Source: a candidate division WOR-3 bacterium (GTDB lineage Bacteria > Hydrothermota > Hydrothermia > LBFQ01 > DSFT01). From it: a DNA stretch of 37,124 nt. The notes below the pieces were generated by a model. It saw nothing but the letters and a program-made list of their open reading frames with translations. It made no database searches and was not told where the DNA came from. Location of the stretch: the NCBI GenBank assembly GCA_965649115.1, contig CBFGJN010000015.1, forward strand, positions 1 through 37,124. The letters are read 5' to 3'. Below are positions 2,705 through 37,124 of this stretch, piece after piece (the first letter of the stretch is position 1; each line of letters begins with the position of its first letter). A program made the translations under genes and the position numbers.

Positions 2705-2722
2705 AAAACAAAGCTTGTAAAG

Positions 2723-2918
2723 AATAGAAATAATTATATTTTCGGAATTATTAGAGTCTAGTAATTATTGCTAAATGTCTGATAATCAATTACTTATAAA
2801 ATTTTCAAGAAAATTATTGATTTTTAGGGGGGCTCCGTAAGTAAAGCCGAAGGTTTAATTATAGGGTGGGTGGGAGAAATATAATAAAATAAATAGTTCC
2901 AGAATTACTAAACACAGC
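2723..2918 (+). mobile_element. Degenerate copy of the ~204-bp MITE-like element, preceded by a right-end fragment
   Basis: Matches element motifs (GATAATCAATTACTTATAAAATTTT, AAGCCGAAGGTTT, GGGTGGGTGGG, right end TTACTAAACACAGC). The left TIR is truncated. Confidence 0.8.
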
Positions 2919-2929
2919 AGAGCAATATT

Positions 2930-3133
2930 GCTTTGTCCAAATAATTATTGTTAAGCGATTGATAATCAATAATTTATAAAATTTTGAAGGAAATTGTTGA
3001 TTTGTTGGGGGGATTATTAGGGGGGCTCTGCCCCCCAAAGCCGAAATATGGGTATTTTAAAGGCGAAGCCTTGAATATAGGGCGGGTGGGAAAATAAAGA
3101 AAAATAAATAATTCCAAAATTTTTGGACACAGC
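2930..3133 (+). mobile_element. Full-length MITE-like element (204 bp) with 11-bp flanking direct repeat
   Basis: Ends GCTTTGTCCAAA...TTTTTGGACACAGC. AGAGCAATATT occurs at 2919-2929 and 3134-3144. Confidence 0.9.
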
Positions 3134-3156
3134 AGAGCAATATTAAGATTATCCTT

Positions 3157-3162
3157 TAAAAT
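3157..3162 (+). promoter_or_regulatory. Putative -10 box of a leaderless promoter
   Basis: TAAAAT 6 nt before ATG 3169, with no SD. The same pattern recurs at most operon starts. Confidence 0.6.
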
Positions 3163-3168
3163 TTTCAA

Positions 3169-3681
3169 ATGTTAAGTCCTGAACAAATAATTGAGAGAGC
3201 AAAAAAGTGGGAAATTGTGTTTGATTTATATGATAATCAAAAACCTATTAATGTTATAGTTGAAAGAAAAGTTAAAGATGGATATGTTGTGAAATTAAAG
3301 GACTTGGATTTAAATGGTTACTTAAAAACAAAGAAAAAACTTGAAATTAGTCAAGAAATTGAAGCAATAATTATAAGTGCCAATTATCTTACGAAAAGAA
3401 TTGAACTTAAACCTGCCAATTCAAAAATTAACGAAAAGAAAATTTTTAAAATTCTTAAAAAATCAAAAAAGAATAATACCCCTATAAAAGCAAAAATTTT
3501 AAATGTTATAAATGGTGGATTTGAAATATCTATTTTTGGTCAAAAAGGATTTATTCCACCTTCACACATTCCTAAAAAAATTTCTGAAAATTTATTTTAT
3601 CATATTGGCAAAGAATATCCTGTTTATATTTTAAGAGTAAATAAAGAAAACATATTAGCCTCTTTAAGACAAATTGAATAA
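3169..3681 (+). CDS. S1 RNA-binding domain protein (two S1 repeats; short RpsA-like)
   Basis: Two S1-like repeats: VKDGYVVKL...NGYL and VINGGFEISIFGQKGFIPPSHI...ENILASLR. Confidence 0.75.
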   Translation: MLSPEQIIERAKKWEIVFDLYDNQKPINVIVERKVKDGYVVKLKDLDLNGYLKTKKKLEISQEIEAIIISANYLTKRIELKPANSKINEKKIFKILKKSKKNNTPIKAKILNVINGGFEISIFGQKGFIPPSHIPKKISENLFYHIGKEYPVYILRVNKENILASLRQIE

Positions 3682-3700
3682 ATGCTTATTTAATATAATT

Positions 3701-4153
3701 TTATATATCATAAAATTTCTTTTTCTTTTTAGGCTTTGGAATTTCTATATTTTCAAGTAATTTTTCACTAACATATATCTTTGATTTAAATCGTAATGCA
3801 AGAGCAATAGCATCACTTGGTCTTGAATCAATTATTCTCTCATCTTTAAAGAACAAGAACCTCTTTGTTAGATGAATTTTAGCATAATATACACCTTCTT
3901 TTAAATCATAAATTTCAATATATTCTATATTTCCATCAAGATTCTTTATTATATTTGTTGTTAATTCATGAGTTAAGGGTCTTGGTGTCTCTATATTTTC
4001 CTTTGCTATAATAATAGCCTCACCTTCATTCTTACCTATTGTCATAGTTAAAAATTTCATTTGTGATTTATCGGAAAGAACTATAATATAACCATCTCCT
4101 ATATCCAAAAGCCCATGAACTTCCACTTCAACCAAATTTAAAAGAAATAACAT
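3701..4153 (-). CDS. Bifunctional nuclease family (DUF151) protein
   Basis: Motifs IG..EG.AI, PRPLTHEL, EGVYYAKI and IDSRPSDAIALALR. The start is reassigned to ATG 4153, 6 nt after TATAAT, because the ORF-track extension runs into the repeat. Confidence 0.85.
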   Translation of the reverse strand: MLFLLNLVEVEVHGLLDIGDGYIIVLSDKSQMKFLTMTIGKNEGEAIIIAKENIETPRPLTHELTTNIIKNLDGNIEYIEIYDLKEGVYYAKIHLTKRFLFFKDERIIDSRPSDAIALALRFKSKIYVSEKLLENIEIPKPKKKKKFYDI

Positions 4154-4180
4154 TCCAAAATTATAAAGCATAAAAAATAT

Positions 4181-4343
4181 GCCTTGCCTAGTAATTCTGA
4201 AATATAGATTATTTGTTATTTTGCCCACCCACCCTGAAAATAAGGCTTTGCTCCCCTATAATCCCCCATAAAATCAATAATTTCTTTAAAAATTTTATAA
4301 GTTATTTACTATCAATCACTTAACACCATTTGCTAGACAAAGC
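4181..4343 (-). mobile_element. Internally deleted MITE-like element (163 bp) with 11-bp direct repeat
   Basis: Ends GCCTTGCCTAGTAA...TTGCTAGACAAAGC. ATAAAAAATAT occurs at 4170-4180 and 4344-4354. Confidence 0.85.
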
Positions 4344-4354
4344 ATAAAAAATAT

Positions 4355-4560
4355 GCCTTGTTTTCCCACCCACCCCAAAACAAGACGGAGCCTTGAAAAT
4401 ACCCATTTTTATGCCTGGGGGCAAAACCCTCCATTACCCTCTCAATAAATCAGCTATTTTCTATGTTTTGCCCACTCAGGTTCTACCTACCCATATCTCG
4501 GCAGAGGTGAGCATTGCCTCCCATTAAATCCTCTGTAAAACAATTCTGAAAATAATAATT
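4355..4560 (-). mobile_element. Two or more decayed element copies in tandem
   Basis: GCCTTG end at 4355, plus CCCACCCACCC, CCCATTTTT and decayed hairpins. A second decayed unit lies at about 4456-4535. Confidence 0.7.
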
Positions 4561-4576
4561 ACAGAAAATTTCTATC

Positions 4577-5212
4577 TTAAATTTTTGATGAGCATATACA
4601 AACAAATCCACCTTCCTTATGGAATCCTTCCTTTATTTCAAAATTTTTTATTGGTTCTTCGTCTTGTGGCTCTTCAAAAAGTGTTGTTAAGACTTTATTT
4701 ATTTTAAATTTTGACAATTCTAACATAGCACAGATTTCATAATAAGAATAAAAAAATGCCTTTTGATATAATGGATGTTCCTTTTTACTTTTATAAAATT
4801 GTGCCCAAGGTGAATCCCATAGTATTAATCCAAGAACTAATTTTCCATTATCTTTCAAAACTCTATAACTTTCTTTTAAAACTAAAAAAGGTTCCTTTAT
4901 AAAACAAAGCGAAACAACTATTAAAACTAAATCAAATACTTTATCCTTAAATGGTAAATTTTCACCTTTTGATTTCAATACAACTATATCTCTATTTTTT
5001 GCTATTTTCAACATATTTAAGGAAATATCTATTCCGTACTTGACATTTAATTTTTGGGCAAATCTTCCTGTTCCAACGCCTATTTCAAGTCCCCTATCAA
5101 AAGAACCTATAATTTTTTTCAAACATTGAATTTCTAATTCATAAGCACTTTTACCAAATGGTTTTTCAAACCATTCATCGTATCTCTGATAATAGCTATC
5201 AAATATATTCAT
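4577..5212 (-). CDS. Class I SAM-dependent methyltransferase
   Basis: Motifs LEIGVGTGRF, GIDIS..ML and GENLPF...FD. The start is set at ATG 5212 (MNIFD), which is coupled to the upstream sORF. Confidence 0.9.
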   Translation of the reverse strand: MNIFDSYYQRYDEWFEKPFGKSAYELEIQCLKKIIGSFDRGLEIGVGTGRFAQKLNVKYGIDISLNMLKIAKNRDIVVLKSKGENLPFKDKVFDLVLIVVSLCFIKEPFLVLKESYRVLKDNGKLVLGLILWDSPWAQFYKSKKEHPLYQKAFFYSYYEICAMLELSKFKINKVLTTLFEEPQDEEPIKNFEIKEGFHKEGGFVCICSSKI

Positions 5213-5283
5213 TTTTGAAAAAGCGGTTTTAAAACCCAATAAAGTCCAATAAAAAATAATAGAGAAAAGTATATAATATCCAT
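5209..5283 (-). CDS. Small single-TM peptide, 24 aa ([24 protein letters not shown])
   Basis: Fills the gap exactly, with a TAATG overlap with the mnmG stop and an ATGA overlap with the methyltransferase start. Hydrophobic sequence. Confidence 0.7.
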   Translation of the reverse strand: MDIIYFSLLFFIGLYWVLKPLFQK

Positions 5284-7142
5284 TAGTTTGCTGTCCTTTG
5301 TAAATAATAATAGAGATTTATAACATCAGTAGGTTTAATACCTGGGATTCTTAAAGCTTGACCAAGCGTTTTTGGTTTATACTTCATAAGTTTATCCTTT
5401 CCTTCATTTGATATATTTGAGATTAAATTGTAATCTATATCATTAGGAATTATATATTTTTCAATTTTTTGAAGTCTTTTCGCTTCCTCCAACAATCTTT
5501 TTATATAACCTTCATACTTAACTTCAATTTCAATTTTTTCAATCAATAAACTATCTTCAACCTTACCATATCCCCATTTTAATAAATGTTCATATCTAAC
5601 ATTATTTCTTTTTAATAAGTCAAATAAGCTTATGCTATCTCTAATCTCTGTTTCTCCTATTTCTTTTAATTTAGGATTTATCTCGCTTGATTTAACTCTT
5701 ACCTCCTTTAATCTTCTAATTTCCTCATTAACAATGTCTATTTTTTCCTTTATTAACTTATAATCTTCGTACTTTAAGAGTCCAAGTTTATAACCATATT
5801 CTGATAATCTATCATAAGCATTATCCATTCTGTGAATTAGTCTATATTCGTTTCTACTTGTTAGCATTCTATAAGGTTCATCTGCTCCTTTTGTAATTAA
5901 GTCATCAATAAGAACACCGATATATCCATCTTGTCTTGTTAAATAAAATGGTTCTTTGTTCAATGCTCTTAAAGCAGCATTTATTCCTGCAATTATTCCC
6001 TGACTTGCTGCTTCTTCATATCCAGTAGTTCCATTTATTTGACCTGCTAAAAATAAATTTTCTAATTTTTTTGTTTCAAGCCAAGGATAAAGTTCTCTTG
6101 GGTCTATAAAATCATATTCAACAGCATAGCCAGGTCTCAAAATAACAGCATTTTCAAGACCTGGAAGTGTCCTTAGCATTTCATATTGGATTTCTAAGGG
6201 CAGAGATGTTGAAAAACCATTTAGGTACCATTCATTGGTATCCCTTCCATCAGGTTCTAAAATAATTCTATGACTTTTTACTTCTTTAAAAAATTCAACA
6301 ACTTTTGTTTCAAAACTTGGACAGTATCTTGGACCTTTACTTTTAATTAAGCCATTGTACATAGGCGCTAAGTGAATGTTTTTTATAACGATTTCATGTG
6401 TCTTTTCATTTGAATATGTAATATAACAAGGAATTTGTTCTATTTTCAAATATGGATTTCTAAATGAGAATCCTCTTGGAGGATTATCTGGCTCATCAAT
6501 TTTTAATTTTGAAAAATCAATAGTTCTACCATCAACTCTTGGAGATGTTCCTGTCTTTAATCTTGATATATTGAAAATTTCTCTTAATTGTTTTGAGAGT
6601 TCAATTGAAGGTGATTCTCCAAGTCTTCCCGCAGGTTTAGTATTATAACCAACATATATTTTCCCACCAAGAAATGTTCCCGTTGTTAAAACTACTGCTT
6701 TTGAATAAAATTCATAACCGAGTGATGTTCTTAGTCCTATAACCTTATATTTATCAATAATTAAATTAACAACTTCTTCTTGAAAAACTGTTAAATTTTT
6801 TGTATTCATTACAACTTTCTTCATCCTTTCTCTATAAGCTTTTCTATCCACTTGCGCCCTTAATGACCAAACAGCAGGACCTTTTCTAACATTCAACATC
6901 TTTGTAGATATAGCACATTCGTCAGTTGCTAAGGCAATTTCTCCTCCAAGAGCGTCTATTTCTTTAATAAGATGAGCCTTTGCTATTCCACCCATAGCGG
7001 GATTACAAGACATTTGACCAATTTTATCAATATCCAAAGTTAATAATAATGTTTTTAAACCCATTCTTGCACTTGCTAAACTTGCTTCAATGCCTGCATG
7101 TCCTCCACCAACAACAATTACATCAAAATTCTTTTCTATCAT
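5283..7142 (-). CDS. mnmG: tRNA uridine 5-carboxymethylaminomethyl modification enzyme MnmG (GidA)
   Basis: Motifs [37 protein letters not shown] and [13 protein letters not shown]. The start is set at ATG 7142 (MIEKNFDV). Confidence 0.97.
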
Positions 7143-7170
7143 AAAGTTATAAATTTTAAAGCTGTTTTTA

Positions 7171-7304
7171 TGCCTTAAATGCCCATTTTTAGGCTTTGGA
7201 GGGCAAAGTAGTTTCAAATAGATTTTTATAAGTTATTGATAATCAATCGCTTAACAACAATTATTAGGGAACTTTCGCCACCTATTTACTACATTTCCAG
7301 AGTT
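7171..7304. mobile_element. Decayed element fragments between divergent promoters
   Basis: GCCCATTTTTAGGCTTTGGAGGGC and TTTTATAAGTTATTGATAATCAATCGCTTAACAA match the reverse complement of the element. A short right-end fragment follows. Confidence 0.75.
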
Positions 7305-7336
7305 CTAATGATTGAACTTTAAAATTTTCAAAAATA

Positions 7337-7558
7337 ATGAAAAATAACATTGGAACAACAGATAGAATGTTAAGAATAGCTTCAAGCATCATTTTAATAG
7401 CTTTATCTATTTCGGTAAATTTATCAAATTTTATAAGAATTATCCTCATTATACTATCAATTTTTCTAATTTTTACTTCAATTATAGGATTTTGTCCAAT
7501 ATATAGAATTTTTAATTTTAATAGTAAAAAAATTGACCCTCTTGAAAGAAGAAAATAA
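7337..7558 (+). CDS. DUF2892 (YgaP-like) membrane protein
   Basis: N.G..DR..R motif, two TM segments and GFCPIY. Confidence 0.85.
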   Translation: MKNNIGTTDRMLRIASSIILIALSISVNLSNFIRIILIILSIFLIFTSIIGFCPIYRIFNFNSKKIDPLERRK

Positions 7559-8181
7559 TGTCAATTACTGAAATTTTAGCAAAATTTTTTTCTAATATCA
7601 TTTATGAAGTGGGATATATTGGAGTTATGATTTTAATGGCTATGGAAAGTATGATTTTTCCTGTTCCAAGTGAAGCAGTGATGCCATTTACAGGTTTTCT
7701 TATCTACGAAGAGAAATTTAGTTGGGTTGGTGTATTTATATTTTCAACACTTGGAAGTATTATTGGTTCTTCAATTTCATATTTAATGGGACTTTATGGT
7801 GGAAGAATGTTTATTTTAAAATATGGAAAGTACTTTTTACTTGAAACGGAGCATCTTGAAATTACTGAAAAATTTTTTCATAAATATGGTGAAATAACAA
7901 TTTTAATTAGTAGATTTATTCCTGTTGTAAGACATTTAATTTCTATACCAGCAGGAATAGCAAAAATGAATTTTATTAAGTTTATTATATTCACAACGAT
8001 AGGAGCAAGCATTTGGAATATGTTTTTGGCTTATATGGGATATATTTTAAAAAGCAATTGGAAAGAAATTATGAAATATAGTAAAATTTTAGACTTTGTA
8101 ATAATTTTAGTAATTGTCTTGGCAATAGGATATTTCTTTTATAAACATTTAAATAATTCTAAATCTTTCAGAATACGCTGA
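7558..8181 (+). CDS. DedA family membrane protein
   Basis: Motifs ESMIFPVPSE and RFIPVVRHLISIPAG. Confidence 0.92.
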   Translation: MSITEILAKFFSNIIYEVGYIGVMILMAMESMIFPVPSEAVMPFTGFLIYEEKFSWVGVFIFSTLGSIIGSSISYLMGLYGGRMFILKYGKYFLLETEHLEITEKFFHKYGEITILISRFIPVVRHLISIPAGIAKMNFIKFIIFTTIGASIWNMFLAYMGYILKSNWKEIMKYSKILDFVIILVIVLAIGYFFYKHLNNSKSFRIR

Positions 8182-8207
8182 GTGAGAAATCCCAAATTGT
8201 CAAATCA

Positions 8208-8312
8208 TTTAATGGCCATTTTTAGGCTTTGGAGAGGCAAACCCCCCCTGATGGCATAAAAATCGGCCTTTTAAAGCGGAAGGCTTATTAGTAGGGGGAA
8301 AAATATAGAATA
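8208..8312. mobile_element. Fused, oppositely oriented element fragments
   Basis: GCCATTTTTAGGCTTTGGAGAGGC (minus strand) is followed by GGCATAAAAATCGG...AAGCGGAAGGCTT...GGGGGAAAAATATAGAA (plus strand). Confidence 0.65.
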
Positions 8313-8336
8313 ACTATCCTTTAAAATTTCAAAGTT

Positions 8337-10025
8337 ATGGTCATCTTTATTATAAGAAAAGGAGAAAAAGAGGAGCTTTTGAAAATAAAGCAAGTTCCTT
8401 ATACTTTTTCAAAAGAAAAGGGTGACTTTTTGGATAGTAATTTAAACGAAAATCATTTTACAATAATGGGTTATAGTGATAAGGAAGTTTTCATAAGAGC
8501 AAATTCAAAAGTAATATATAAAGATAAAGAAATAATTGGTGATTTCAAGATAAGAGAAAATGAAACATTTATAGCAAATGGAATTGAAATTACGCTTGCT
8601 AAAATTGATATTGGAGTTCAAGCAGAAGACATCTCAAGAAGTCAACCAACACAATTTATAGATATTGAAGAAGCGGAAGTTCCTTATCTTAAAATTCTAT
8701 CAGGTCCTGATGCAGGCAAGATAATTGAGATTGACAAAACGGGAATTATTGGAAGAGGAGAAGAAGCCGATTATAAAATAGATGATCAATATGTTTCAAG
8801 AAAACAAGCAAAAATATATGTTTTTGACGATAAATATGAAATTGAAGATATTGGTGGAAAAAATCCAACATTATTAAATGGAAAAGTTTTAACGAAAATA
8901 ATGCCTCTTCATAGTGGTGATGAAATTCAAATTGGAAAAACAAGAATTTTATTTGTAAATCCAAAAGAGAAACCCGAAAGTGAAATTTATAAATCCAAAG
9001 GTATTCCAGCTTATGTTTATGGAATTTTAGCATTTATTATAATAATTTTAATTGGTTTTGGAATTTGGTTTTATAATGCACAACAAGAAAACAAATTTAA
9101 TAATTTAATAAGTTCAGCAAGTTCAACAATTCCTATAATTTCACAGCTTGAAACAACCGAAAAGAAAATTAATGCTCTTGAAAGAGCAAAAGATGAAATA
9201 AATCAGGCTGAAAAAATTAAGAAAAATGACCAAAGAATTTCAGATTTAAAACCACTTATTGAAAAATTATTAAATGCGTGGAAAGATGTAAAGAAAGCAG
9301 AAGAAAGCATAAATAATGGTGATTATTTTAGTGCTTTAAACTCAATTGAAAATGCTATCAAGGTTTTAGAAAATGATAAATATGTAAATAGTTTATATGA
9401 CCAAATTTTAATAGCAACTGTTGTTCAACAAAATTATGCAGAAGCAAAAGCATTATTTGAAAATGGAAAAATTAATGAAGCATTGGAAGTTTTAAATTTG
9501 GCTCTAAATAGAGCACCAGATCATCCACAACTATTAGAACTTAAAAAAATTATTTTAGATGCTCAAAGAAGAAAAACAACTCAATCTGAAATTCAACAAA
9601 AACTTGCATCACTAAAAGATGTTAAGCCAAAAGAAGAAAAGAAAGAGGAAGTAGCACAAAAACCAAAAGAACAAAAATCACTTGAATCAACAATAAAAAT
9701 TGATGTTCCAAGAATAAACTTAGAAACAGCACAACCTGAGATAAATTTAGATATTACGCTTGATGAAACGAAAAACTTAGTTAATGCTTATGAAAAAGAG
9801 CACAATTTAGATAAGACAATTAGAATAGCAACATCTATATTACAAAGTGACCCAAATAATGTTAAAGCAAAGTACTATTTGAGATTAGCTCAGAAAGAAA
9901 AGCAAGCACTTGCTTATGAAAAGCAAGGTAAAAAAGCAGAAGCAATATCAATTTGGGAAGAAATTCTTAAATTAGATCCTTCAAATACTTGGGCAAAGCA
10001 AGCGCTTTTAAGACTTGGAAAATGA
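8337..10025 (+). CDS. FHA-domain single-pass membrane protein with C-terminal TPR-like helices
   Basis: FHA motifs (IIGR, YVSRKQA, GKNPTLLNG, LHSGDEIQIG), a TM segment (VYGILAFIIIILIGFGIW) and TPR-like repeats. Confidence 0.85.
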   Translation: MVIFIIRKGEKEELLKIKQVPYTFSKEKGDFLDSNLNENHFTIMGYSDKEVFIRANSKVIYKDKEIIGDFKIRENETFIANGIEITLAKIDIGVQAEDISRSQPTQFIDIEEAEVPYLKILSGPDAGKIIEIDKTGIIGRGEEADYKIDDQYVSRKQAKIYVFDDKYEIEDIGGKNPTLLNGKVLTKIMPLHSGDEIQIGKTRILFVNPKEKPESEIYKSKGIPAYVYGILAFIIIILIGFGIWFYNAQQENKFNNLISSASSTIPIISQLETTEKKINALERAKDEINQAEKIKKNDQRISDLKPLIEKLLNAWKDVKKAEESINNGDYFSALNSIENAIKVLENDKYVNSLYDQILIATVVQQNYAEAKALFENGKINEALEVLNLALNRAPDHPQLLELKKIILDAQRRKTTQSEIQQKLASLKDVKPKEEKKEEVAQKPKEQKSLESTIKIDVPRINLETAQPEINLDITLDETKNLVNAYEKEHNLDKTIRIATSILQSDPNNVKAKYYLRLAQKEKQALAYEKQGKKAEAISIWEEILKLDPSNTWAKQALLRLGK

Positions 10026-10705
10026 AAAGATTTTTGATAATTTTATTAATAATCCAAACAATTATTATAATTGGTGGTGGTTTCTATGTCTATAAAAACT
10101 ATATATCTAAACCGAAACAAGAAACAGTTATTGATATTAGAAAAGAGCTTGAACTTCCAAAAGAAACAACAAAAAGTGAAAATATAAAAGAACAGAGTGT
10201 AAAATCAGAAAAATTAATAACTCAAAATCAAACTACTGATACCACTAATAAAGTTTTAAAACCAGAAACAACAATAACAAATATAAATCAAATTCAATTT
10301 CCACAAGTTGAGGAAGTTAAACAAGAAAAAGTTGAAGAAAAACCTAAAAACCCAAGTGATATAAGAGTAGATGTTGATATTTCAAAAATTGATATTCCAA
10401 AGGTAAATCCTGAGCTATCAGGAGGATTTTCTGCCAGTGGAACCTTAGCATTACAACAAGCTTATGAAGAAGAACACAACTTAAATAAAACAATACAAAT
10501 AGCAAATGATATATTAAAATCAAATCCAAATGACAAATTAGCTCAAAAGTACAAAAAGCTAGCAGAACTTGAAATTATGGCATTAGATGCTTTAAATAAA
10601 GGTGATAGACAATCAGCATTAAATTATTATTATCAAATGCAATCAATTGACCCAGATAATAAGTGGGCTAAAAAAGGCATTATGAAAATTATGAGTGGAG
10701 GTTAA
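10022..10705 (+). CDS. Membrane-anchored TPR-like protein, paralogous to the C-terminus of the upstream gene
   Basis: Start at ATG 10022 (ATGA overlap), an N-terminal TM segment and the shared AYE.EHNL.KTI.IA..IL...PN motif. Confidence 0.75.
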   Translation: MKRFLIILLIIQTIIIIGGGFYVYKNYISKPKQETVIDIRKELELPKETTKSENIKEQSVKSEKLITQNQTTDTTNKVLKPETTITNINQIQFPQVEEVKQEKVEEKPKNPSDIRVDVDISKIDIPKVNPELSGGFSASGTLALQQAYEEEHNLNKTIQIANDILKSNPNDKLAQKYKKLAELEIMALDALNKGDRQSALNYYYQMQSIDPDNKWAKKGIMKIMSGG

Positions 10706-11838
10706 TGCTAAAAAAATTAGATTTTTATATAATTAAACTACATATCCTACCTTTTTTAGGTTCAATTTTAGTCATAACCCTTGTTCTACTTCTTGATAAA
10801 ATTTTTGATTTAATGGACTTACTAATTAGAAAAGGCGTGCCAGTAGAAATTGTTATAAAATTATTTATATATGCACTCCCATTTATATTAGCACTTTCAG
10901 TTCCTATGTCTGTTTTGATAGCAAGTTTAATAGCTTTTGGAAATTTATCACAAAATTTTGAAATTATTGCTGCAAAATCCTGTGGAATAAGTTTAAAAAG
11001 GCTTTTATTAGGACCAATTATATTTTCAACAATTGTTTTTATTTTTATGGTTTGGTTTAATGATAGAATTCTACCTGAATCAAATCATAAATTTAAAAAT
11101 TTGTTAATTGATATTTACATTAAAAAACCAATAGCCCAAATAAAATCAGGTTTATTTAATGAAATTGGAAACTATAAACTATATATTGGAAATAAAGATG
11201 ACAGAACGTCTTATTTACAAGATATAAGAATTTACGATATATCAGATTATGGTAAAACATTCATAACTGCGAGAAGTGGTTATATTTATAGTGTTGAAGA
11301 TAGCATCCTAATTTTAGATTTAAGAGATGGTCAAATTCATCAACTTTTAGACGGATTTACCAAAAAATATAGAACAATAGACTTTGAAAATTATCAAGTT
11401 ATAATAAAACTTGACATTAGAATGCAAATTAGAGAAAGGGAATTTAGAGGAGATAGAGAAATGAATATAAAGCAATTATTTGAAGAAATGGAAAGAAAAA
11501 AGAAGGAATACGAAATGACAAAAGATTTAGATTTAAAGAAATATCACAAAATGAGAATTAATCAAATTTTAGTAGAAATTCACAAAAAGTTTTCCATGCC
11601 ATTTTCTGCAATTATATTTGTTTTATTATCCGCTCCAATATCTTCAATAATAAGGAGAGGTGGTTTTGGTCCTGCACTTGGTGTATCCTTTATAGTATTT
11701 ACAATTTATTATATTTTCCTAATTGGAGGAGAAGAACTTGCCAAGAAAAATATAGTAAATGGTGCAATTGCAATGTGGTTTCCTAATTTCTTATTTTTCA
11801 TTATAGCAATATATTTAATTAGAAGAGAAGAATACTAA
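10705..11838 (+). CDS. LptF/LptG family LPS export permease
   Basis: 3 TM + periplasmic domain + 3 TM. Motifs EIIAAKSCGIS, EIHKKFSMPF and WFPN. Confidence 0.9.
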   Translation: MLKKLDFYIIKLHILPFLGSILVITLVLLLDKIFDLMDLLIRKGVPVEIVIKLFIYALPFILALSVPMSVLIASLIAFGNLSQNFEIIAAKSCGISLKRLLLGPIIFSTIVFIFMVWFNDRILPESNHKFKNLLIDIYIKKPIAQIKSGLFNEIGNYKLYIGNKDDRTSYLQDIRIYDISDYGKTFITARSGYIYSVEDSILILDLRDGQIHQLLDGFTKKYRTIDFENYQVIIKLDIRMQIREREFRGDREMNIKQLFEEMERKKKEYEMTKDLDLKKYHKMRINQILVEIHKKFSMPFSAIIFVLLSAPISSIIRRGGFGPALGVSFIVFTIYYIFLIGGEELAKKNIVNGAIAMWFPNFLFFIIAIYLIRREEY

Positions 11839-11841
11839 ACT

Positions 11842-12573
11842 ATGAAAGTAAGACTTGACCAATTACTTGTTATAAGAAATTTAGTTGAAAGTAGAGAAAA
11901 AGCAAAGGCACTAATTATGTCAGGGAATATTATTGTAAATGGTGTCATTATTGATAAACCAGGAAAACTTGTTGATATAAATTCTGAAATTAAAATAAAG
12001 GAAAAATTGAAATATGTTTCAAGAGGTGGTTTAAAGCTTGAAACTGCCTTAAATTATTTTAAATTAGATGTTAAAAATTTTATTTGTCTTGATATTGGTT
12101 CTTCAACAGGTGGATTTGTAGATTGCTTATTACAAAGAGGAGCAAAAATTGTTTATGCAGTTGATGTTGGAAAAAATCAACTTCATGAAAAGTTAAGAAA
12201 TGATAAAAGGGTTATTTCTTATGAAGAGAAAGATGCTCGTGAGCTAAACGAAAATGATATAAAAGAAAAAGTCCATCTAATAACGATTGATGTTTCATTT
12301 ATAAGTTTAACGAAAATTATCCCACATGTTATAAAATTTTTAAAAGATGATGGATATTTATTAGTTCTTGTTAAACCACAATTTGAACTTGAAAAAAAAT
12401 TCATTAAAAAAGGTGTCGTTAGAGATGAAAATTTAAGAAAATTAGCAGTGGATAAAATTTTAAATTTTTTAAAAGAACTTAAATTTGAAATTTTAGGTGT
12501 AGTTAGGTCTTATCCACCAGGACCAAAAGGAAATCATGAATTTTTTGTTTTAGCGAAAAAAAACTTGATTTAA
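11842..12573 (+). CDS. tlyA: TlyA family rRNA 2'-O-methyltransferase
   Basis: S4 domain RLD, plus YVSRGGLKL, DIGSSTGGF, DVSFISL, VKPQFE and GPKGNHE. Confidence 0.95.
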   Translation: MKVRLDQLLVIRNLVESREKAKALIMSGNIIVNGVIIDKPGKLVDINSEIKIKEKLKYVSRGGLKLETALNYFKLDVKNFICLDIGSSTGGFVDCLLQRGAKIVYAVDVGKNQLHEKLRNDKRVISYEEKDARELNENDIKEKVHLITIDVSFISLTKIIPHVIKFLKDDGYLLVLVKPQFELEKKFIKKGVVRDENLRKLAVDKILNFLKELKFEILGVVRSYPPGPKGNHEFFVLAKKNLI

Positions 12574-12614
12574 TAAAAAACAAAGGTATTGCGCACAAAT
12601 CAGTTTATTTTTAA

Positions 12615-12662
12615 ATTTCTTATTTTTCCCAACCCACCCTCTAAAAAACCCCCAATAAAATT
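12615..12662 (-). mobile_element. Short element remnant
   Basis: TTTCTTATTTTTCCCAACCCACCCT...CCCCCAATAAAAT matches the G-tract end on the minus strand. Confidence 0.55.
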
Positions 12663-12874
12663 ATTACATGGCTAACTGCTACTGAAAAACTCTATAAAGG
12701 ATTCTTATACTCAAAAAATTCCAACTTCAATAAGAATAGACTATGAACTAATATGCTCCTGTAAGTGTTAGATATATTATAAAAATTGACCCTAATGCTC
12801 TTTTTTAGCAACCTTTCCAACTTATAATCCAGGGGGAGGTGCTTATTATCAGAGAAGTAAGGGGCTTTTTTAGT

Positions 12875-15395: not shown

Positions 15396-15462
15396 GTTTT
15401 CACCCCCTTAAAAAGGTTAAAAACGATAACCTAAATTTTAAAGCATAATTAAAAAGTCTTGG

Positions 15463-15491
15463 TACTGTGTCCAAATTTATTGAACAAAGCA
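15463..15491. mobile_element. Ends-only (29-bp) derivative of the element
   Basis: TACTGTGTCCAAAT+TTATTGAACAAAGCA: the two termini abut with the whole interior deleted. Confidence 0.7.
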
Positions 15492-15500
15492 GAGCTTTAA

Positions 15501-19918: not shown

Positions 19919-19953
19919 TTTAAAATTTTAAAGTTGGTGATCAATAACCTTAT

Positions 19954-20155
19954 GCTGTGTCCAGTAATTCTGAAAGTATTTATTTTTCTATATTTTCCCC
20001 ACCCGCCCTGAAAATAAAGCGGAGCTTTATAAACGCCCAATTTTCGGCTTTGGGGGGCGGAGCCCCCCTTTAATCCCCCCATTAAATCAATAATTTCAAA
20101 AAAATTTCATAAATTATTGATAGTCAAGGACTTAACATGATTTACTGGACAAAGC
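19954..20155 (-). mobile_element. Full-length element (202 bp), tandem unit 1
   Basis: Ends GCTGTGTCCAGTAA...TTACTGGACAAAGC. Flanked by AATAACCTTAT at 19943-19953 and 20156-20166. Confidence 0.92.
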
Positions 20156-20166
20156 AATAACCTTAT

Positions 20167-20370
20167 GCCTTGTCTAATAATTCTAAAAATATATATTTTA
20201 CTATATTTTCCCCGCCCACCCTGAAATAAAGGCTGCGCCTTTAAAATGCCCATTTTTTGCCTTTGGGGGCTTTCGCCCCCCATTAGACCCCCCCATAAAA
20301 TTAATAGTTCCGATAAAATTTTTATAAGTTATTGGTTACCAACAACTTAACATTATTTATTGGACAAAGC
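20167..20370 (-). mobile_element. Full-length element (204 bp), tandem unit 2
   Basis: Ends GCCTTGTCTAATAA...TTATTGGACAAAGC. A third AATAACCTTAT lies at 20371-20381. Confidence 0.92.
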
Positions 20371-20381
20371 AATAACCTTAT

Positions 20382-20468
20382 AAAAACTCTTATGAAATTA
20401 TTAATTTCATTGGAGGGTTTAATGTAGGGCGAAGTTTTCAAGCCAAAAGCTTAATTACTAAACAAGGC
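20382..20468 (+). mobile_element. Decayed element copy
   Basis: Partial interior followed by right end TTACTAAACAAGGC. Confidence 0.65.
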
Positions 20469-20479
20469 AAAGAAAAATT

Positions 20480-20624
20480 GCTTTGTCTAATAAAAATTTT
20501 AAGAAAACTATTTATTTAAAGCCTCCCAATGCCGAAATATGGGAATTTTTGAGCCGAAGGCTTAAATATAGGGTGGGTGGGAAAAATAAGAAAAATCAAT
20601 AATTCCAGAATTATTAGACACAGC
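20480..20624 (+). mobile_element. Internally deleted element (145 bp)
   Basis: Ends GCTTTGTCTAATAA...TTATTAGACACAGC. The flanks AAAGAAAAATT and AAAAGAAAAACT form an imperfect direct repeat. Confidence 0.85.
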
Positions 20625-20661
20625 AAAAGAAAAACTAATTTATGGTTTAAAATTTCAAATT

Positions 20662-22487: not shown

Positions 22488-22489
22488 AA

Positions 22490-22572
22490 AGCCCCTTGCC
22501 GAAAAATGGGACTTTTAAAGGCGAAGCCTTATTTTCAGGGCGAGTGGGCAAAATAAGAAATAATCATAATTT
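22490..22572 (+). mobile_element. Truncated element copy
   Basis: GCCGAAAAATGGG...AAGGCGAAGCCTT...GGGCGAGTGGG. Confidence 0.8.
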
Positions 22573-22583
22573 ATAAAGCTTTT

Positions 22584-22706
22584 GCTTTGTCCAATAAAAG
22601 CTTTGAGGAAATTATAGATTTAAACGGGTATTTATAAGGCGAAGGCTTAAATATAGGGTGGGGAAAATATAGAAATAATCTACATTTCAGAATTCTTAGA
22701 CAAAAC
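22584..22706 (+). mobile_element. Internally deleted element (123 bp) with 11-bp direct repeat
   Basis: Ends GCTTTGTCCAATAA...TTCTTAGACAAAAC. ATAAAGCTTTT occurs at 22573-22583 and 22707-22717. Confidence 0.88.
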
Positions 22707-22737
22707 ATAAAGCTTTTGCTTTAAAATTTTAAAACTT

Positions 22738-25859: not shown

Positions 25860-25892
25860 TGTGTTTTTATAGGTGATTTTACTTTGCTTCCA

Positions 25893-25930
25893 AAGCCGAA
25901 GGCTTAATTATAGGGTGGGTGGAAAAAATA
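25893..25930 (+). mobile_element. Element remnant (hairpin 2 plus G-tracts)
   Basis: AAGCCGAAGGCTTAATTATAGGGTGGGTGGAAAAAATA. Confidence 0.75.
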
Positions 25931-25984
25931 TATTTTTTATCCTTTATAATTTTCGGAAAACAAGACAAAACAGGAGGTTGTTGT

Positions 25985-28301: not shown

Positions 28302-28309
28302 TCGGTTAT

Positions 28310-28356
28310 GGGGGGGCAAGCCCCCCTAACTGAAAATCAGAATTATTAGATACACC
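28310..28356 (+). mobile_element. Element remnant (hairpin 1 plus decayed right end)
   Basis: GGGGGGGCAAGCCCCCC...CAGAATTATTAGATACACC. It may double as a terminator. Confidence 0.65.
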
Positions 28357-28384
28357 ATTTATTTTATCCTTTAAAATTTTCAAT

Positions 28385-30297: not shown

Positions 30298-30309
30298 AGG
30301 AGGAAAAAC

Positions 30310-34456: not shown

Positions 34457-34491
34457 TTGAAAATTCTTTTTTCAGATAAGAGGGGCAGAAC

Positions 34492-36327: not shown

Positions 36328-36453
36328 AGCTTGAAAATTTTATTTCACAAATGGGTGAATTTTCAAGTCTCTGAAAGTATAATAAAATCTACTATTCTAA
36401 TATCATAAAAAATTTTTTGCCAAAACATTTTCTAAAATTTCAAAAAAAGTGAA

Positions 36454-36586
36454 GTCAAATAATCCTAAAAATATAATTATTTCTATTCTTTTCCCACTAA
36501 CACTGAATTAAGCCTTCTGCGAGGAATCTTCGCCCCCTAAAATCTATCATTAAATCAATAATTTAACACCATTTATTGGACAAAGC
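36454..36586 (-). mobile_element. Decayed element copy
   Basis: Ends with TTATTGGACAAAGC at 36573-36586; the interior is decayed. Confidence 0.75.
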
Positions 36587-36619
36587 AAACAAAATTGGTG
36601 GTCAATTATTTGATTTATA

Positions 36620-36686
36620 GACTTATATTTAGGGTGGGTGGAGAAAATGTAGAAAAATCAATAATTTTAGATTTACTAGACACAGC
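36620..36686 (+). mobile_element. Right half of the element
   Basis: AGGGTGGGTGG...TTACTAGACACAGC. Confidence 0.8.
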
Positions 36687-36697
36687 AAAATTTTTAT

Positions 36698-36884
36698 GCT
36701 TTGTCCAATAATTATTGTTAAACAATTGATAGCTAATAACTTATAAAAGATTTATTAAAATTATTGGTTTATAGGGGGGCAGAGCCCCCCAAGGCAAAAG
36801 ATGGGGTATTTATAAGCCGAAGGCTTATTTTCAGGGTGGGTAAAATAAAGAAAAATAAATGATTTTGGAATTACTTGACGCACT
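36698..36884 (+). mobile_element. Near full-length element (187 bp)
   Basis: Left end GCTTTGTCCAATAA, both hairpins present, decayed right end TTACTTGACGCACT. Confidence 0.88.
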
Positions 36885-36895
36885 ATCAAAACACT

Positions 36896-37100
36896 GCTTT
36901 GTCCAATAAATAATGTTAAGACCTTGATAATCAATAACTTATAAAATTTTTAAGGAAATTATCGATTTTATTCGGGGATTTTAAGGGGGGCGAAGCCCCC
37001 CCGCAGCCGAAAAATGGGGATTTTTAAGCCGTAGGCTTAAATTCAGGGTGGGTGGGCAAAATATAGAAATGATTATATTTCCAGAATTATTGGACAAAGC
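36896..37100 (+). mobile_element. Full-length element (205 bp) with perfect TIRs
   Basis: GCTTTGTCCAATAA...TTATTGGACAAAGC (15 bp if the flanking T/A are included). Confidence 0.93.
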
Positions 37101-37111
37101 AATTTGATTTT

Positions 37112-37124
37112 GCTTTGTCCAATA
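37112..37124. mobile_element. Terminus of the next element, cut by the window edge
   Basis: GCTTTGTCCAATA, 11 nt after the previous unit. Confidence 0.8.

What the first reader, a model, noticed from the sequence alone, without database searches (positions are those of the whole stretch)
2723..37124. A ~204-bp non-coding TIR element has colonised nearly every inter-operon gap
Seen: about 20 whole or partial copies at 11 loci (2.7-3.1, 4.2-4.6, 7.2, 8.2, 12.6, 15.5, 19.9-20.6, 22.5-22.7, 25.9, 28.3 and 36.5-37.1 kb), in both orientations and never inside a recognisable gene. Full units are 202-205 bp with ends (T)GCYKTGTCYARTAA. No transposase is present in the window. Inference: a non-autonomous mobile family mobilised in trans. 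The ends can be read as TG...CA with a 9-bp duplication, or as GC...GC with an 11-bp A-N9-T duplication. I cannot assign an IS family.
Basis: partly seen in the sequence, partly recalled or inferred. Interest (0 to 1): 0.8.

Follow-up and report, generated by a model that had tools for sequence, protein, structure and literature searches.

The report
Promoter-homing MITE and its hidden transposase
A 205-bp non-coding mobile element fills about 5% of this small hot-spring bacterial genome, is moved by an IS5-family insertion sequence that the assembly had hidden at contig ends, and lands almost always in one orientation a fixed 18-19 bases upstream of gene promoters.

Summary
All 11 window loci hold copies or remnants of one ~205-bp element with ends TGCTTTGTCYARTAA. 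The end motif occurs 20 times in the window against 0.7 expected.

- **Scale.** The family gives 768 profile hits covering 100.7 kb, or 5.45% of the 1.85-Mb assembly.
- **Mobility.** It is a true MITE. 91 of 203 full copies have perfect 9-bp target duplications, against 0 in a shifted control.
- **Partner.** The same ends, followed by non-MITE sequence, sit on 26 contig termini (10 left, 16 right). They open and close the gene of a 300-aa IS5-family DDE transposase (NF033579, PF01609+PF13737). The inferred element is ~1,052 bp. Six left/right pairs share identical 9-mers. By size, ends and 9-bp duplication it fits the IS903 group. It was never assembled through, so the lack of any transposase hit is an assembly or binning artefact.
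- **New finding.** The outer right end lies 18-19 nt (179) or 11-12 nt (45) upstream of a CTTTAAAATTT promoter-like box in 224 of 318 arrays. Left ends show no such anchoring. The youngest copies are nearest the box. Arrays are head-to-tail with 9-bp spacers and were built by independent insertions.
- **Status.** Targeted insertion is inferred, not shown. No strict empty site was found and no RNA data exist.

The parts
2723..2919 (+). Right-end remnant fused to a near-full MITE copy (model 7-205); the terminal palindrome at the internal junction is deleted
   Evidence: E 1.1e-31
2920..2928 (.). 9-bp target duplication GAGCAATAT, left copy; it is also the spacer between two head-to-tail copies
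   Evidence: read directly
2929..3134 (+). Full MITE copy (206 bp), young: 96-97% identical to copies on C89 and C13
   Evidence: E 9.6e-54
3135..3143 (.). 9-bp target duplication GAGCAATAT, right copy
3154..3164 (+). Promoter-like box CTTTAAAATTT, 19 nt beyond the MITE right end and 4 nt before the ATG at 3169
4180..4344 (-). Two-ended, internally deleted MITE copy (165 bp)
4357..4594 (-). Two overlapping partial MITE copies (model 59-169 and 31-175)
7172..7268 (-). Partial MITE copy (left part, model 8-134)
8228..8327 (+). Partial MITE copy (right part, model 84-191) overlapping the box at 8319, upstream of the ATG at 8337
12590..12670 (-). Degraded right-half remnant (contains CCCAACCCACCCT); below the profile threshold
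   Evidence: read directly
15463..15491 (-). ~29-bp remnant made of a left end joined to a right end; its right end is 19 nt from a box on the minus strand (15443)
19953..20156 (-). Full MITE copy; its right end (low coordinate) is 19 nt from the minus-strand box at 19933; flanked by AATAACCTT
20166..20371 (-). Full MITE copy, head-to-tail with the previous one. The same 9-mer AATAACCTT stands before, between and after the pair. The two copies are only ~75% alike
   Evidence: (D6)
20370..20469 (+). Partial MITE copy ending in a right end
20479..20625 (+). Two-ended, internally deleted MITE copy, 9 bp after the previous right end; its right end is 19 nt from the box at 20645; ATG at 20662
22492..22572 (+). 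Partial MITE copy (model 104-185)
22583..22707 (+). Two-ended, internally deleted MITE copy; its right end is 11 nt from the box at 22719
25888..25932 (+). Short MITE remnant (model 125-169) just upstream of the box at 25942
   Evidence: (D2)
28310..28357 (+). Remnant: G/C hairpin plus right end; the right end is 11 nt from the box at 28369; ATG at 28385
   Evidence: read directly; (D12)
36454..36587 (-). Two-ended, internally deleted MITE copy
36619..36687 (+). Partial MITE copy (right part)
36697..36884 (+). Near-full MITE copy with a degraded right end, 9 bp after the previous right end
36895..37101 (+). Full MITE copy (the best-scoring one in the genome)
37111..37124 (+). First 14 bases of a further copy, 9 bp after the previous right end; the contig breaks here

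Best explanation

**Shown.**
- It is a ~205-bp non-coding unit bounded by 15-bp inverted ends (TGCTTTGTCYARTAA ... TTAYTRGACAAAGCA).
- It moves by DDE-type staggered-cut insertion that duplicates 9 bp of target.
- The genome carries a ~1,052-bp insertion sequence (length inferred) with the same ends. It is present at 16 or more places, none assembled through.
- The MITE shares the first ~26 nt with the IS left end and the first ~19 nt with the IS right end. Its interior is unrelated to the IS.
- The IS also makes 9-bp duplications and encodes a 300-aa IS5-family transposase of the IS903 kind.

**Inferred: mobilisation.** This transposase, or a close variant of it, moves the MITE in trans.

**Inferred from geometry: target choice.**
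- Insertion is site- and orientation-specific. The right end is placed 18-19 nt, less often 11-12 nt, upstream of the host's CTTTAAAATTT box.
- That box looks like the -10 element of leaderless genes. The duplicated 9 bp then lie at about -34 to -26, so the promoter stays intact.
- The duplication regenerates the target on the promoter side, so the same site is hit again and again.
- This pushes older copies upstream and builds head-to-tail arrays with 9-bp spacers. A second cue is the 9 bp next to a resident end.

**Interior.** The conserved G+C-rich interior holds two very stable hairpins and an AGGGYGGGYGGG block. It is probably kept for transposition or for DNA/RNA stability in a hot habitat. 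Its role is not shown.

**Confidence by part.** About 0.9 for the MITE plus its IS5-family partner, and about 0.55-0.6 for true enzymatic promoter targeting. The figure given is for the whole statement.
For: **Mobility.**
- 91 of 203 full copies have perfect 9-bp duplications, against 0 in a shifted control.
- 108 of 285 two-ended elements of all sizes have them.
- 44 of 192 full copies have a nearest relative at 95% identity or more.

**Partner IS.**
- Of 932 end matches, 118 are followed by non-MITE sequence. Two such sequences recur there.
- End A sits at 10 contig termini and end B at 16. All run off the contig within 101-236 bp.
- End A opens an ORF that is 92% identical to the N-terminus of P0001 (300 aa).
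- P0001's C-terminus ...LIMNSFYSYSNLAD is the frame that stops inside end B.
- 6 of 10 end-A termini share an identical 9-mer with an end-B terminus.
- P0001 matches NF033579 'IS5 family transposase' at 245.5 bits against a cut-off of 140, over residues 5-292. It also matches PF01609 and PF13737.

**Comparison with annotated relatives.**
- ISAba10 and ISVa1 are 1,023 and 1,041 bp and have 9-bp duplications.
- Their ends are GGCTTTGTTGCATAAATA and GGCGTTGTTGC... The end here matches ISAba10's at 14 of 18 positions.
- Published IS903-group members are ~1,050 bp with 15-27-bp IRs and 9-bp DRs (PMC3281130, Table 2 passages).
- A complete relative with both ends occurs on metagenome contig L029. 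An IS end and a full MITE share contig L033.

**Targeting.**
- 318 arrays have a complete outer right end. The box lies at 18-19 nt in 179 and at 11-12 nt in 45. In all, 247 have it at 9-20 nt.
- 125 of 149 outer left ends have no box within 60 nt.
- 11 of 16 IS right-end flanks carry the box at the same offset.
- The geometry recurs in 5 of 8 right-complete MITE copies from other genomes and metagenomes. It also recurs in 4 of 6 right ends of IS relatives.
- Unoccupied promoters show no conserved block where the duplication would fall.
- 55 of 75 young copies are box-proximal, against 8 of 25 old ones.

**Arrays.**
- 94 head-to-tail junctions have exactly 9 bp.
- 71 of 72 nine-bp junctions are head-to-tail.
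- Neighbours are not sister copies: median identity is 0.775 against 0.785 for all pairs. The neighbour is the closest relative in 0 of 33 pairs.
Against: - Its length and intactness are inferred from a protein found on other short contigs.
- **Co-distribution fails with these queries.** The IS-specific end sequences and P0001 were not found in G001-G004. G002 holds hundreds of MITE copies, so this includes a MITE-rich genome. All of these are fragmented assemblies.
- **No transposase domain in the genus.** PF01609 finds nothing in any of the five genomes.
- **No strict empty site.** Gene order differs between congeners at the occupied gaps. Public contigs gave no clean joint that skips an element.
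- **Targeting rests on standing copies.** Lethal insertions are never seen, so selection contributes to an unknown degree.
- **The box is not a proven promoter.** It is called one only from its count and its position before start codons.
- **Arrays are not fully explained.** 64 of 318 arrays have no box. Some arrays have 9-bp spacers of unrelated sequence, for example 36.6-37.1 kb. In 13 of 94 junctions neither full neighbour has a matching duplication. Repeated use of one site does not explain these without later recombination.
- **Structure.** RNAalifold found no consensus structure on the profile alignment.
Confidence: 0.75

Rival explanations
1. Insertion is not targeted. Copies land more or less at random, and the promoter-proximal, one-orientation pattern is what purifying selection leaves in a very compact genome.
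For: - The genome is compact. Divergent boxes sit only ~10-30 nt apart in the congeners, so few places tolerate an insertion.
- Only surviving copies can be counted.
- IS903 itself has only a loose palindromic target motif (PMC2577343, Table 1).
Against: - Selection could set a minimum distance from the box but not a maximum. Yet 179 of 318 arrays sit at exactly 18-19 nt and only 4 at 20 nt.
- Free promoters have nothing conserved upstream of the box that an insertion would need to spare.
- The near-identical, hence very recent, IS copies show the same offset in 11 of 16 cases.
- Young MITE copies are more box-proximal than old ones, not less.
- Orientation is almost absolute.
Confidence: 0.2
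2. The element is mainly a host-serving module that spread by transposition and is now kept by selection. It could act as an upstream promoter part, a transcription insulator or terminator, or a small-RNA gene.
For: - Interior blocks are 80-99% conserved although median pairwise identity is only 68%.
- Hairpin H2 keeps pairing through a two-sided change: GCC/GGC in 60 copies, GGC/GCC in 35. Its loop is GAA or GTA in 93 of 108.
- The plus strand folds better than shuffles (z -3.6).
- 310 of 568 boxes have a copy just upstream.
- 104 copies carry a box-like motif near model position 50, pointing out of the left end.
- Outward promoters are reported for IS903-group elements (PMC3281130) and for MITEAba12 (PMC6382973 abstract).
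Against: - No Rfam family matches.
- No terminator-like site was found in a full copy region (0 found).
- H1 loops occur about equally in both orientations, so their sequence is not read.
- 258 boxes work without any copy, and the congeners lack it at the same gene.
- Many copies are internally deleted or degraded.
- No RNA run is available to test expression.
Confidence: 0.2
3. The MITE is moved by a different transposase from the IS found here. The shared ends would reflect common descent only.
For: - G002 has about 290 candidate MITE places, but the IS ends and P0001 were not found there.
- The MITE interior is unrelated to the IS.
- Metagenome relatives of the transposase at 61-75% identity carry the same ends, so several variants exist.
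Against: - The shared terminal 19-26 nt, the same 9-bp duplication, the same target geometry and residence in one genome fit one enzyme.
- No other transposase candidate appeared among the multi-copy ORFs. This was a reading of the sequences only, with no family search.
- G002 is in 180 contigs, so absence there is weak evidence.
Confidence: 0.1
4. The tandem arrays arose by local duplication or unequal crossing-over of one inserted copy plus its 9-bp flank, not by repeated insertion.
For: In some arrays the same 9-mer stands before, between and after the copies, for example AATAACCTT at 19.9-20.4 kb and GAGCAATAT at 2.9-3.1 kb.
Against: - In 33 adjacent full-full pairs the neighbour is never the closest relative. 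Its rank is 5-219 among 223 other copies.
- Median identity of neighbours (0.775) is no higher than that of random pairs (0.785).
- The IS itself is found inserted into array spacers.
Confidence: 0.03

Closest known systems
MITEAba12 and its parent ISAba12 (IS5 family) in Acinetobacter
   Same: A non-coding MITE whose inverted ends match a co-resident IS5-family element. It makes 9-bp target duplications, and about 40% of copies still carry them. Here the figure is 45% of full copies. Outward-facing promoter-like sequences are proposed for it, and a copy lies inside a larger transposon (PMC6382973 abstract).
   Different: - MITEAba12 is 113 bp at 1-22 copies per genome (PMC10969869 section 3.2). 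It prefers AT-rich regions with no fixed site.
- The element here is 205 bp with 768 hits (5.45% of the genome).
- It has a conserved G+C-rich structured interior.
- It sits at a fixed distance and orientation from a promoter-like box and forms head-to-tail arrays.
IS903 group of the IS5 family (IS903, ISAba10, ISVa1, ISPam1 and others)
   Same: - Size is ~1.02-1.05 kb with a single DDE transposase gene (PF01609+PF13737) and 9-bp duplications.
- The 15-22-bp ends share the core GCTTTGT...ATAAAT.
- IS903 has a symmetric target motif around its 9-bp duplication.
- Outward promoters are reported for the group.
   Different: - The transposase is only ~30% identical to the nearest annotated members.
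- The ends start TGC rather than GGC.
- The target is set by an asymmetric box 10 nt (or 2 nt) beyond the duplication, and orientation is fixed.
- I found no report of this for the group in the passages read. Hu and Derbyshire 1998 on IS903 orientation preference could not be read.
Correia elements of Neisseria and ERIC elements of enterobacteria (abundant bacterial MITEs)
   Same: They are abundant intergenic MITEs, often just upstream of genes, that can carry promoters. ERIC reaches 711 copies in Photorhabdus (PMC10969869, sections 3.2 and 4.1 passages).
   Different: No partner IS of the IS5 family, no 9-bp duplication, and no fixed offset to a promoter box were described for them in the passages read. 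Copy density here, about 415 hits per Mb, is higher than in any example that review gives.
Site-specific 'safe-haven' transposons such as Tn7 at attTn7
   Same: Insertion occurs at a fixed distance and orientation from a recognised host sequence without harming the host gene. The idea is as summarised in PMC10969869 (introduction passage) and from general knowledge.
   Different: Tn7 uses a dedicated target-selecting protein and one site per genome. Here a single small transposase would use hundreds of promoter boxes. No target-selector gene is seen.
Mobile insertion cassettes (MICs): IS ends enclosing passenger genes
   Same: The derivative at C11:31359-32784 has the family's ends, a 9/9 duplication (TATATCTTT) and two passenger ORFs with no transposase. 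The MIC concept is recalled from memory and was not checked in a paper.
   Different: Only one such copy was seen. One of its arms is a whole MITE and the other a truncated one, so it may be a composite of two MITEs rather than a dedicated cassette.

Membership tests
MITE (miniature inverted-repeat transposable element) | Small size (tens to a few hundred bp) with no coding capacity | tested here: met
   The consensus is 205 bp. 121 of 295 two-ended copies are 200-209 bp. No ORF of 80 aa or more lies within a copy.
MITE (miniature inverted-repeat transposable element) | Terminal inverted repeats | tested here: met
   The 15-bp ends TGCTTTGTCYARTAA / TTAYTRGACAAAGCA are mostly 90% or more conserved.
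MITE (miniature inverted-repeat transposable element) | Target-site duplication flanking the copies | tested here: met
   91 of 203 full copies have perfect 9/9 flanks, against 0 in a shifted control.
MITE (miniature inverted-repeat transposable element) | Multi-copy, with an autonomous element bearing the same ends | tested here: met
   768 hits. The IS ends A and B share 26 and 19 terminal nt with the MITE. The IS interior is not assembled.
MITE (miniature inverted-repeat transposable element) | Presence/absence polymorphism (empty sites) | tested here: inconclusive
   The congeners lack the element at one orthologous promoter, but gene order differs there. Public contigs gave no clean skipping joint.
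IS5 family, IS903 group (partner IS) | DDE transposase of the IS5 type | tested here: met
   P0001 matches NF033579 at 245.5 bits (cut-off 140) over its full length. It also matches PF01609 (88.9 bits) and PF13737 (73.5 bits). G000 itself holds only the first 56 codons and the last ~14.
IS5 family, IS903 group (partner IS) | 9-bp target duplication | tested here: met
   6 of 10 left-end termini pair with a right-end terminus through an identical 9-mer. The reference copies of ISAba10 and ISVa1 show 9-bp duplications. The published group value is 9.
IS5 family, IS903 group (partner IS) | Length about 0.95-1.15 kb with a single ORF | tested here: inconclusive
   The length of 1,052 bp is inferred as 67 nt + 903 nt + 82 nt. 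It is not assembled through. The complete metagenome relative on L029 is 922 bp.
IS5 family, IS903 group (partner IS) | Inverted ends of the group type (GGC TTTGT...) | tested here: met
   14 of 18 positions are identical to the ISAba10 end. The first base is T, not G.
REP/BIME-type extragenic palindromes | 20-40-bp imperfect palindrome units without inverted ends or target duplication, linked to a RAYT (Y1) transposase | tested here: not met
   The unit is 205 bp with inverted ends and 9-bp duplications. A RAYT gene was not searched for.
Described non-coding RNA family (Rfam) | Match to a curated covariance model at its gathering score | tested here: not met
   The only hit is MIR2619 at 26.8 bits against a gathering score of 113, E 0.02.

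The most novel reading that the evidence does not exclude
This IS5-family element and its MITE are promoter-homing transposons.

- The transposase, alone or through the RNA polymerase-promoter complex, reads the host's CTTTAAAATTT -10 box.
- It integrates in one orientation with the element's right end at about -35. This regenerates the target each time.
- The element can therefore pile up harmlessly upstream of more than half of all promoters in a very compact thermophile genome.
- Each array is then a dated stack of insertions, with the youngest nearest the gene.

That would be a bacterial, single-protein counterpart of the safe-haven targeting known from Tn7 or the yeast Ty elements. It would also be a possible basis for a compact, promoter-directed integration tool.
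Probability: 0.5. Interest if true: 0.75.

Novelty: new variant of a known kind. Interest (0 to 1): 0.62.

Why it matters
1. **A cautionary case for metagenome-assembled genomes.**
   - It survives only as ~100-bp stubs on 26 contig ends.
   - 115 of 198 contig ends stop in this one family.
   - A report of 'no transposase' in such assemblies is therefore not evidence of absence.

2. **Scale.** About 415 hits per Mb and 5.45% of the genome exceed the prokaryotic examples listed in a 2024 review. That review states that nothing like the plant figure of 8-10% had been seen in prokaryotes.

3. **Geometry.** The fixed offset and orientation, if caused by the enzyme, would be an unusual target-selection mode for a small DDE transposase. 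It is directly testable with a plasmid assay.

4. **Host biology.** The analysis exposes the host's dominant promoter box and its apparently leaderless gene starts, in a little-studied thermophilic lineage. It also shows that gene order between congeners changes at the occupied gaps.

Tried and rejected
- **Rfam.** A scan of the whole window at E up to 1 gave only a plant miRNA model far below threshold.
- **Transposase domain.** A PF01609 search of the own genome and of 19 genomes of the order found none in the five genomes of the genus. The hits in sister genera lack the element's ends.
- **Multi-copy ORFs.** 68 ORFs have paralogues. By reading their sequences, the top groups looked like small nuclease-like, helical and methyltransferase proteins, not transposases. 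This was not tested with a family search.
- **Named genomes, transposase.** The search for related loci with P0001 in the named species genomes confirmed none of 84 stretches.
- **Named genomes, end motif.**
  - Only one MAG, titled Candidatus Hydrothermia bacterium, held real copies.
  - The recurrent hits in a Thermodesulfobacteriota MAG belong to an unrelated repeat.
- **Empty sites.** In G001-G004 gene order is not conserved across the 19.8-20.7 kb and 22.5-22.7 kb gaps, so no strict empty allele was obtained.
- **Sequencing runs.**
  - No RNA holder is listed.
  - Contigs of four DNA runs laid on window 1-20000 show a depth spike over the MITE bins. The listed joints have short sides of 20-34 letters and none cleanly skips an element.
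  - A loose end in run X7 just before the promoter at 3159 may be an allele without the element or a different gene order. It is not interpretable.
- **Structure.** RNAalifold on the profile alignment gave no structure on either strand. The hairpins were then scored in unaligned copies.
- **Terminators.** A terminator scan of a full-copy region found 0.
- **Cargo ORFs.** Pfam gave only sub-threshold hits (RelB at 15.3 bits for the 65-aa ORF). PADLOC gave none.
- **Unavailable sources.** Hu and Derbyshire 1998 is not held. Earlier findings of this scan were not open.
- **Rejected ideas.**
  - CRISPR-like array: the spacers are only 9 bp and the units are 205 bp with inverted ends.
  - Integron attC sites.
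  - An IS circle-junction origin of the arrays. It would need high identity between neighbours, which one search does not show.
  - A hybrid -35 supplied by the element's end. The spacing would be 19-25 nt.

Full report
**Setting.**
- The window is a whole contig (C15) of a 99-contig, 1,848,020-bp assembly with 27.6% G+C.
- Its genes are those of a Gram-negative bacterium, including LptF/G, TonB, an outer-membrane efflux protein and AcrB.
- The same repeat occurs in a MAG whose record is titled Candidatus Hydrothermia bacterium. NCBI taxonomy now files that name under class Caldifarciminia.
- The public runs that hold the window are labelled hot springs metagenome.

**The observation.**
- The repeat family is real.
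  - The end motif occurs 20 times in the window against 0.70 expected, and 0 of 100 shuffles reach that count.
- A profile built from four window copies, then rebuilt from 192 full copies, has a 205-bp consensus.
  - It finds 768 hits in the genome, totalling 100,737 bp, or 5.45%.
  - In the window it gives 18 hits at 8 of the 11 listed loci.
- Direct reading shows degraded remnants at the other three loci.

**It is a transposon.**
- Of 203 full copies with enough flank, 91 have identical 9-mers directly outside TG...CA. A comparison shifted by nine bases gives 0.
- When elements are delineated as inward-facing end pairs there are 295.
  - 121 are 200-209 bp and most of the rest are 120-199 bp variants with internal deletions.
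  - 108 of 285 testable ones have perfect duplications.
- The family is old and still active.
  - Median pairwise identity is 68%.
  - Yet 44 of 192 full copies have a nearest relative at 95% or more, and 21 at 98% or more.
- One derivative (C11:31359-32784) has the family's ends and a 9/9 duplication.
  - It carries two passenger ORFs of 65 and 242 aa that match no family above threshold.
  - This suggests that the ends suffice for mobilisation.

**The partner.**
- Neither the own genome nor any of the five genomes of the genus gives a PF01609 hit.
- I then listed end matches whose inner 100 nt are not MITE-like. There are 118 of 932, and two sequences recur among them.
  - End A occurs at 10 places and end B at 16.
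  - Every one of the 26 runs off a contig terminus within 101-236 bp.
- End A opens an ORF (MGKVNWQEYNKELVRRGE...). Its 56 available codons are 92% identical to P0001.
  - P0001 is a 300-aa protein seen on 7 short contigs, the longest 2,530 bp. That is shorter than the smallest contig of this assembly (2,807 bp).
  - P0001 ends ...LIMNSFYSYSNLAD, which is exactly the frame that stops 82 nt inside end B.
- Six of the ten end-A termini share an identical 9-mer with an end-B terminus on another contig.
  - So the long element also makes 9-bp duplications.
  - Those six contig pairs are neighbours in the genome.
- From these pieces the element is 67 + 903 + 82 = 1,052 bp. This is inferred, not assembled.
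- P0001 is a full-length match to NCBIfam NF033579, 'IS5 family transposase' (245.5 bits, cut-off 140). It also matches PF01609 and PF13737.
- Its nearest annotated relatives on plasmids are ISVa1, ISAba10 and ISAcma6, at about 30% identity.
  - In the fetched records ISAba10 is 1,023 bp and ISVa1 is 1,041 bp.
  - Both are flanked by perfect 9-bp duplications.
  - The ISAba10 end GGCTTTGTTGCATAAATA matches the end here at 14 of 18 positions.
- Published IS903-group members are ~1,050 bp with 15-27-bp IRs and 9-bp DRs (PMC3281130, Table 2 passages).
- The MITE shares about 26 nt with the IS left end and about 19 nt with the right end. Its interior is unrelated to the IS.
- Metagenome contigs hold relatives.
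  - L029 has a complete 922-bp copy with both ends.
  - L033 has an IS end and a full MITE together.
- The 10 + 16 ends in G000 are nearly all 100% identical, which points to a very recent burst.
- Against simple co-distribution, neither the IS-specific ends nor P0001 were found in G001-G004. G002 has about 290 candidate MITE places. All four are fragmented assemblies.

**Arrays.**
- Where two neighbouring copies are both complete at their junction, the gap is exactly 9 bp in 72 cases, and 71 of those are head-to-tail.
- After refining the ends there are 94 such head-to-tail junctions.
- Local duplication does not explain them.
  - In 33 adjacent full-full pairs the neighbour is never the closest relative. 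Its rank is 5 to 219.
  - Neighbours are no more alike (median 0.775) than random pairs (0.785).
- The IS itself is found inserted in an array spacer between two MITEs (C93-C43) and beside MITE ends.

**Promoter geometry.**
- The motif CTTTAAAATTT occurs 573 times in the genome, against 5-245 for six scrambled or shifted controls.
- In 399 of the 573 cases a start codon opening an ORF of 80 or more codons follows within 20 nt, mostly at 4-8 nt.
  - This fits a -10-type box of leaderless genes.
  - The transposase gene of the IS has the same arrangement.
  - This reading rests on position and count only.
- Of 568 boxes far enough from contig ends, 310 have a MITE hit within 60 nt upstream.
- Among 318 arrays or solo loci with a complete outer right end, the box points away from the element at these distances:
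  - 18-19 nt in 179;
  - 11-12 nt in 45;
  - 9-20 nt in 247 overall;
  - no box within 60 nt in 64.
- Of 149 complete outer left ends, 125 have no box within 60 nt.
- Eleven of 16 IS right-end flanks show the same offset.
- The geometry recurs outside G000.
  - It holds in 5 of 8 right-complete MITE copies from G002, the Hydrothermia MAG and a metagenome contig.
  - It holds in 4 of 6 right ends of IS relatives.
- Unoccupied promoters have no conserved block where the duplication would lie. The distance therefore seems to be measured from the box itself.
- With the -10 hexamer at -12 to -7, the 19-nt class places the element's last base at -35 and the duplication at -34 to -26. The promoter-side copy of the target is thus restored.
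- Young copies (nearest relative at 95% or more) are box-proximal in 55 of 75 cases, and 13 more sit 9 bp from the next copy. Of the oldest copies, 8 of 25 are box-proximal.
- This is what repeated, oriented use of one box-defined site predicts: arrays grow at the promoter end, head-to-tail, with 9-bp spacers.
- The model does not explain everything.
  - Some spacers are of unrelated sequence (for example 36.6-37.1 kb).
  - In 13 junctions neither full neighbour has a matching duplication.
  - Ectopic recombination between copies is a plausible cause. It would fit the changes of gene order between congeners at exactly these gaps. It is not shown.

**Interior.**
- Several blocks are 80-99% conserved.
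- Hairpin H2 keeps its stem through a two-sided change (GCC/GGC in 60 copies, GGC/GCC in 35). Its loop is GAA (82) or GTA (11) among the 108 of 190 copies in which it was found.
- Hairpin H1 is GGGGGGC-NNN-GCCCCCC.
  - Each loop occurs about as often as its reverse complement (GAA 24, TTC 18; GGA 11, TCC 8; AAA 11, TTT 10).
  - This is the mark of flipping at the DNA level and argues that the loop sequence is not read.
- One full copy folds at -58.9 kcal/mol on the plus strand (z -3.6) and -42.8 on the minus strand (z -2.6).
- No terminator-like site and no Rfam family were found.
- A box-like motif near model position 50, pointing out of the left end, is present in 104 hits.
- The function of the interior remains open.

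**Comparison and novelty.**
- The closest published case is MITEAba12 with ISAba12. It is 113 bp, makes 9-bp duplications, has 40% of copies with duplications, and prefers AT-rich sites (PMC6382973, abstract read). It occurs at 1-22 copies per genome (PMC10969869, section 3.2 read).
- The same review gives ERIC at 711 copies in Photorhabdus as its high example.
  - It says nothing like the plant 8-10% has been seen in prokaryotes.
  - Its section on insertion-site preferences mentions no fixed offset to promoters.
- My searches for the lineage names and for tandem or head-to-tail MITEs in prokaryotes listed no description of this element. These were search listings, not a full reading.
- IS903 has a symmetric target motif, WTTYA-N9-TRAAW (PMC2577343, Table 1 passage). 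The key paper on its orientation preference could not be read, so prior art on that point may exist.

**Verdict.** This is a new member of a known kind, an IS5/IS903-type MITE with its parent. Its abundance, array architecture and promoter-anchored, oriented placement make it a new variant of that kind.

Noticed in passing
genome-wide; in the window e.g. 3154, 8319, 20645, 22719, 25942, 28369 (+) and 15443, 19933 (-): The 11-mer CTTTAAAATTT occurs 573 times in 1.85 Mb (controls 5-245). In 399 cases it is followed within 20 nt, mostly at 4-8 nt, by the start codon of a long ORF. It looks like the -10 box of widespread leaderless genes. In the congeners, divergent boxes sit back to back only ~10-30 nt apart.
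   Followed up: partly
G000 C11:31359-32784 (L001:1001-2426): A cargo-carrying derivative. A truncated MITE arm and a full MITE arm enclose a 65-aa ORF (weak RelB-like, 15.3 bits) and a 242-aa ORF with an N-terminal repeat. The whole is flanked by TATATCTTT on both sides. No Pfam or PADLOC family scores above threshold.
   Followed up: partly
all contig termini of G000: 115 of 198 contig termini end in this family: 89 in a MITE hit within 60 nt of the end and 26 in the IS. Shared 9-mers link six contig pairs.
   Followed up: yes
MITE model positions ~90-106 (e.g. window 3020-3036): The loop of the hairpin GGGGGGC-NNN-GCCCCCC occurs in both orientations at similar frequency across copies (GAA/TTC, GGA/TCC, AAA/TTT). 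This suggests frequent hairpin-mediated inversion of the loop at the DNA level.
   Followed up: partly
MITE model positions 149-160 (e.g. window 3070-3081): A block AGGGYGGGYGGG is about 90% or more conserved at most positions. It makes the plus strand G-rich. No role was found for it.
   Followed up: no
window 19.8-20.7 kb and 22.5-22.7 kb versus L147-L154: Gene order differs between the five congeners exactly at MITE-occupied gaps, while the flanking gene blocks align at 73-88% identity. This is consistent with recombination between copies but is not shown.
   Followed up: partly
G000 C64:174-1912, C84:3342-4984, C35:13075-14124, C39:5140-6180, C4:38031-39086: Tandem paralogous ORFs of 155-200 aa form several multi-copy families. 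By eye their sequences resemble small restriction-endonuclease-like proteins. No family search was run on them.
   Followed up: no
window 116-2704 (+): An 862-aa ORF with no Pfam family at E 1e-5 and an internal direct repeat (1778-1820 / 2090-2132).
   Followed up: no
L037, L079, L100-L103, L114 (a MAG titled Thermodesulfobacteriota bacterium): An unrelated multi-copy repeat happens to contain the 17-nt end motif. The flank before the motif is identical in all seven loci, and six share the sequence after it. It does not match the MITE profile.
   Followed up: partly
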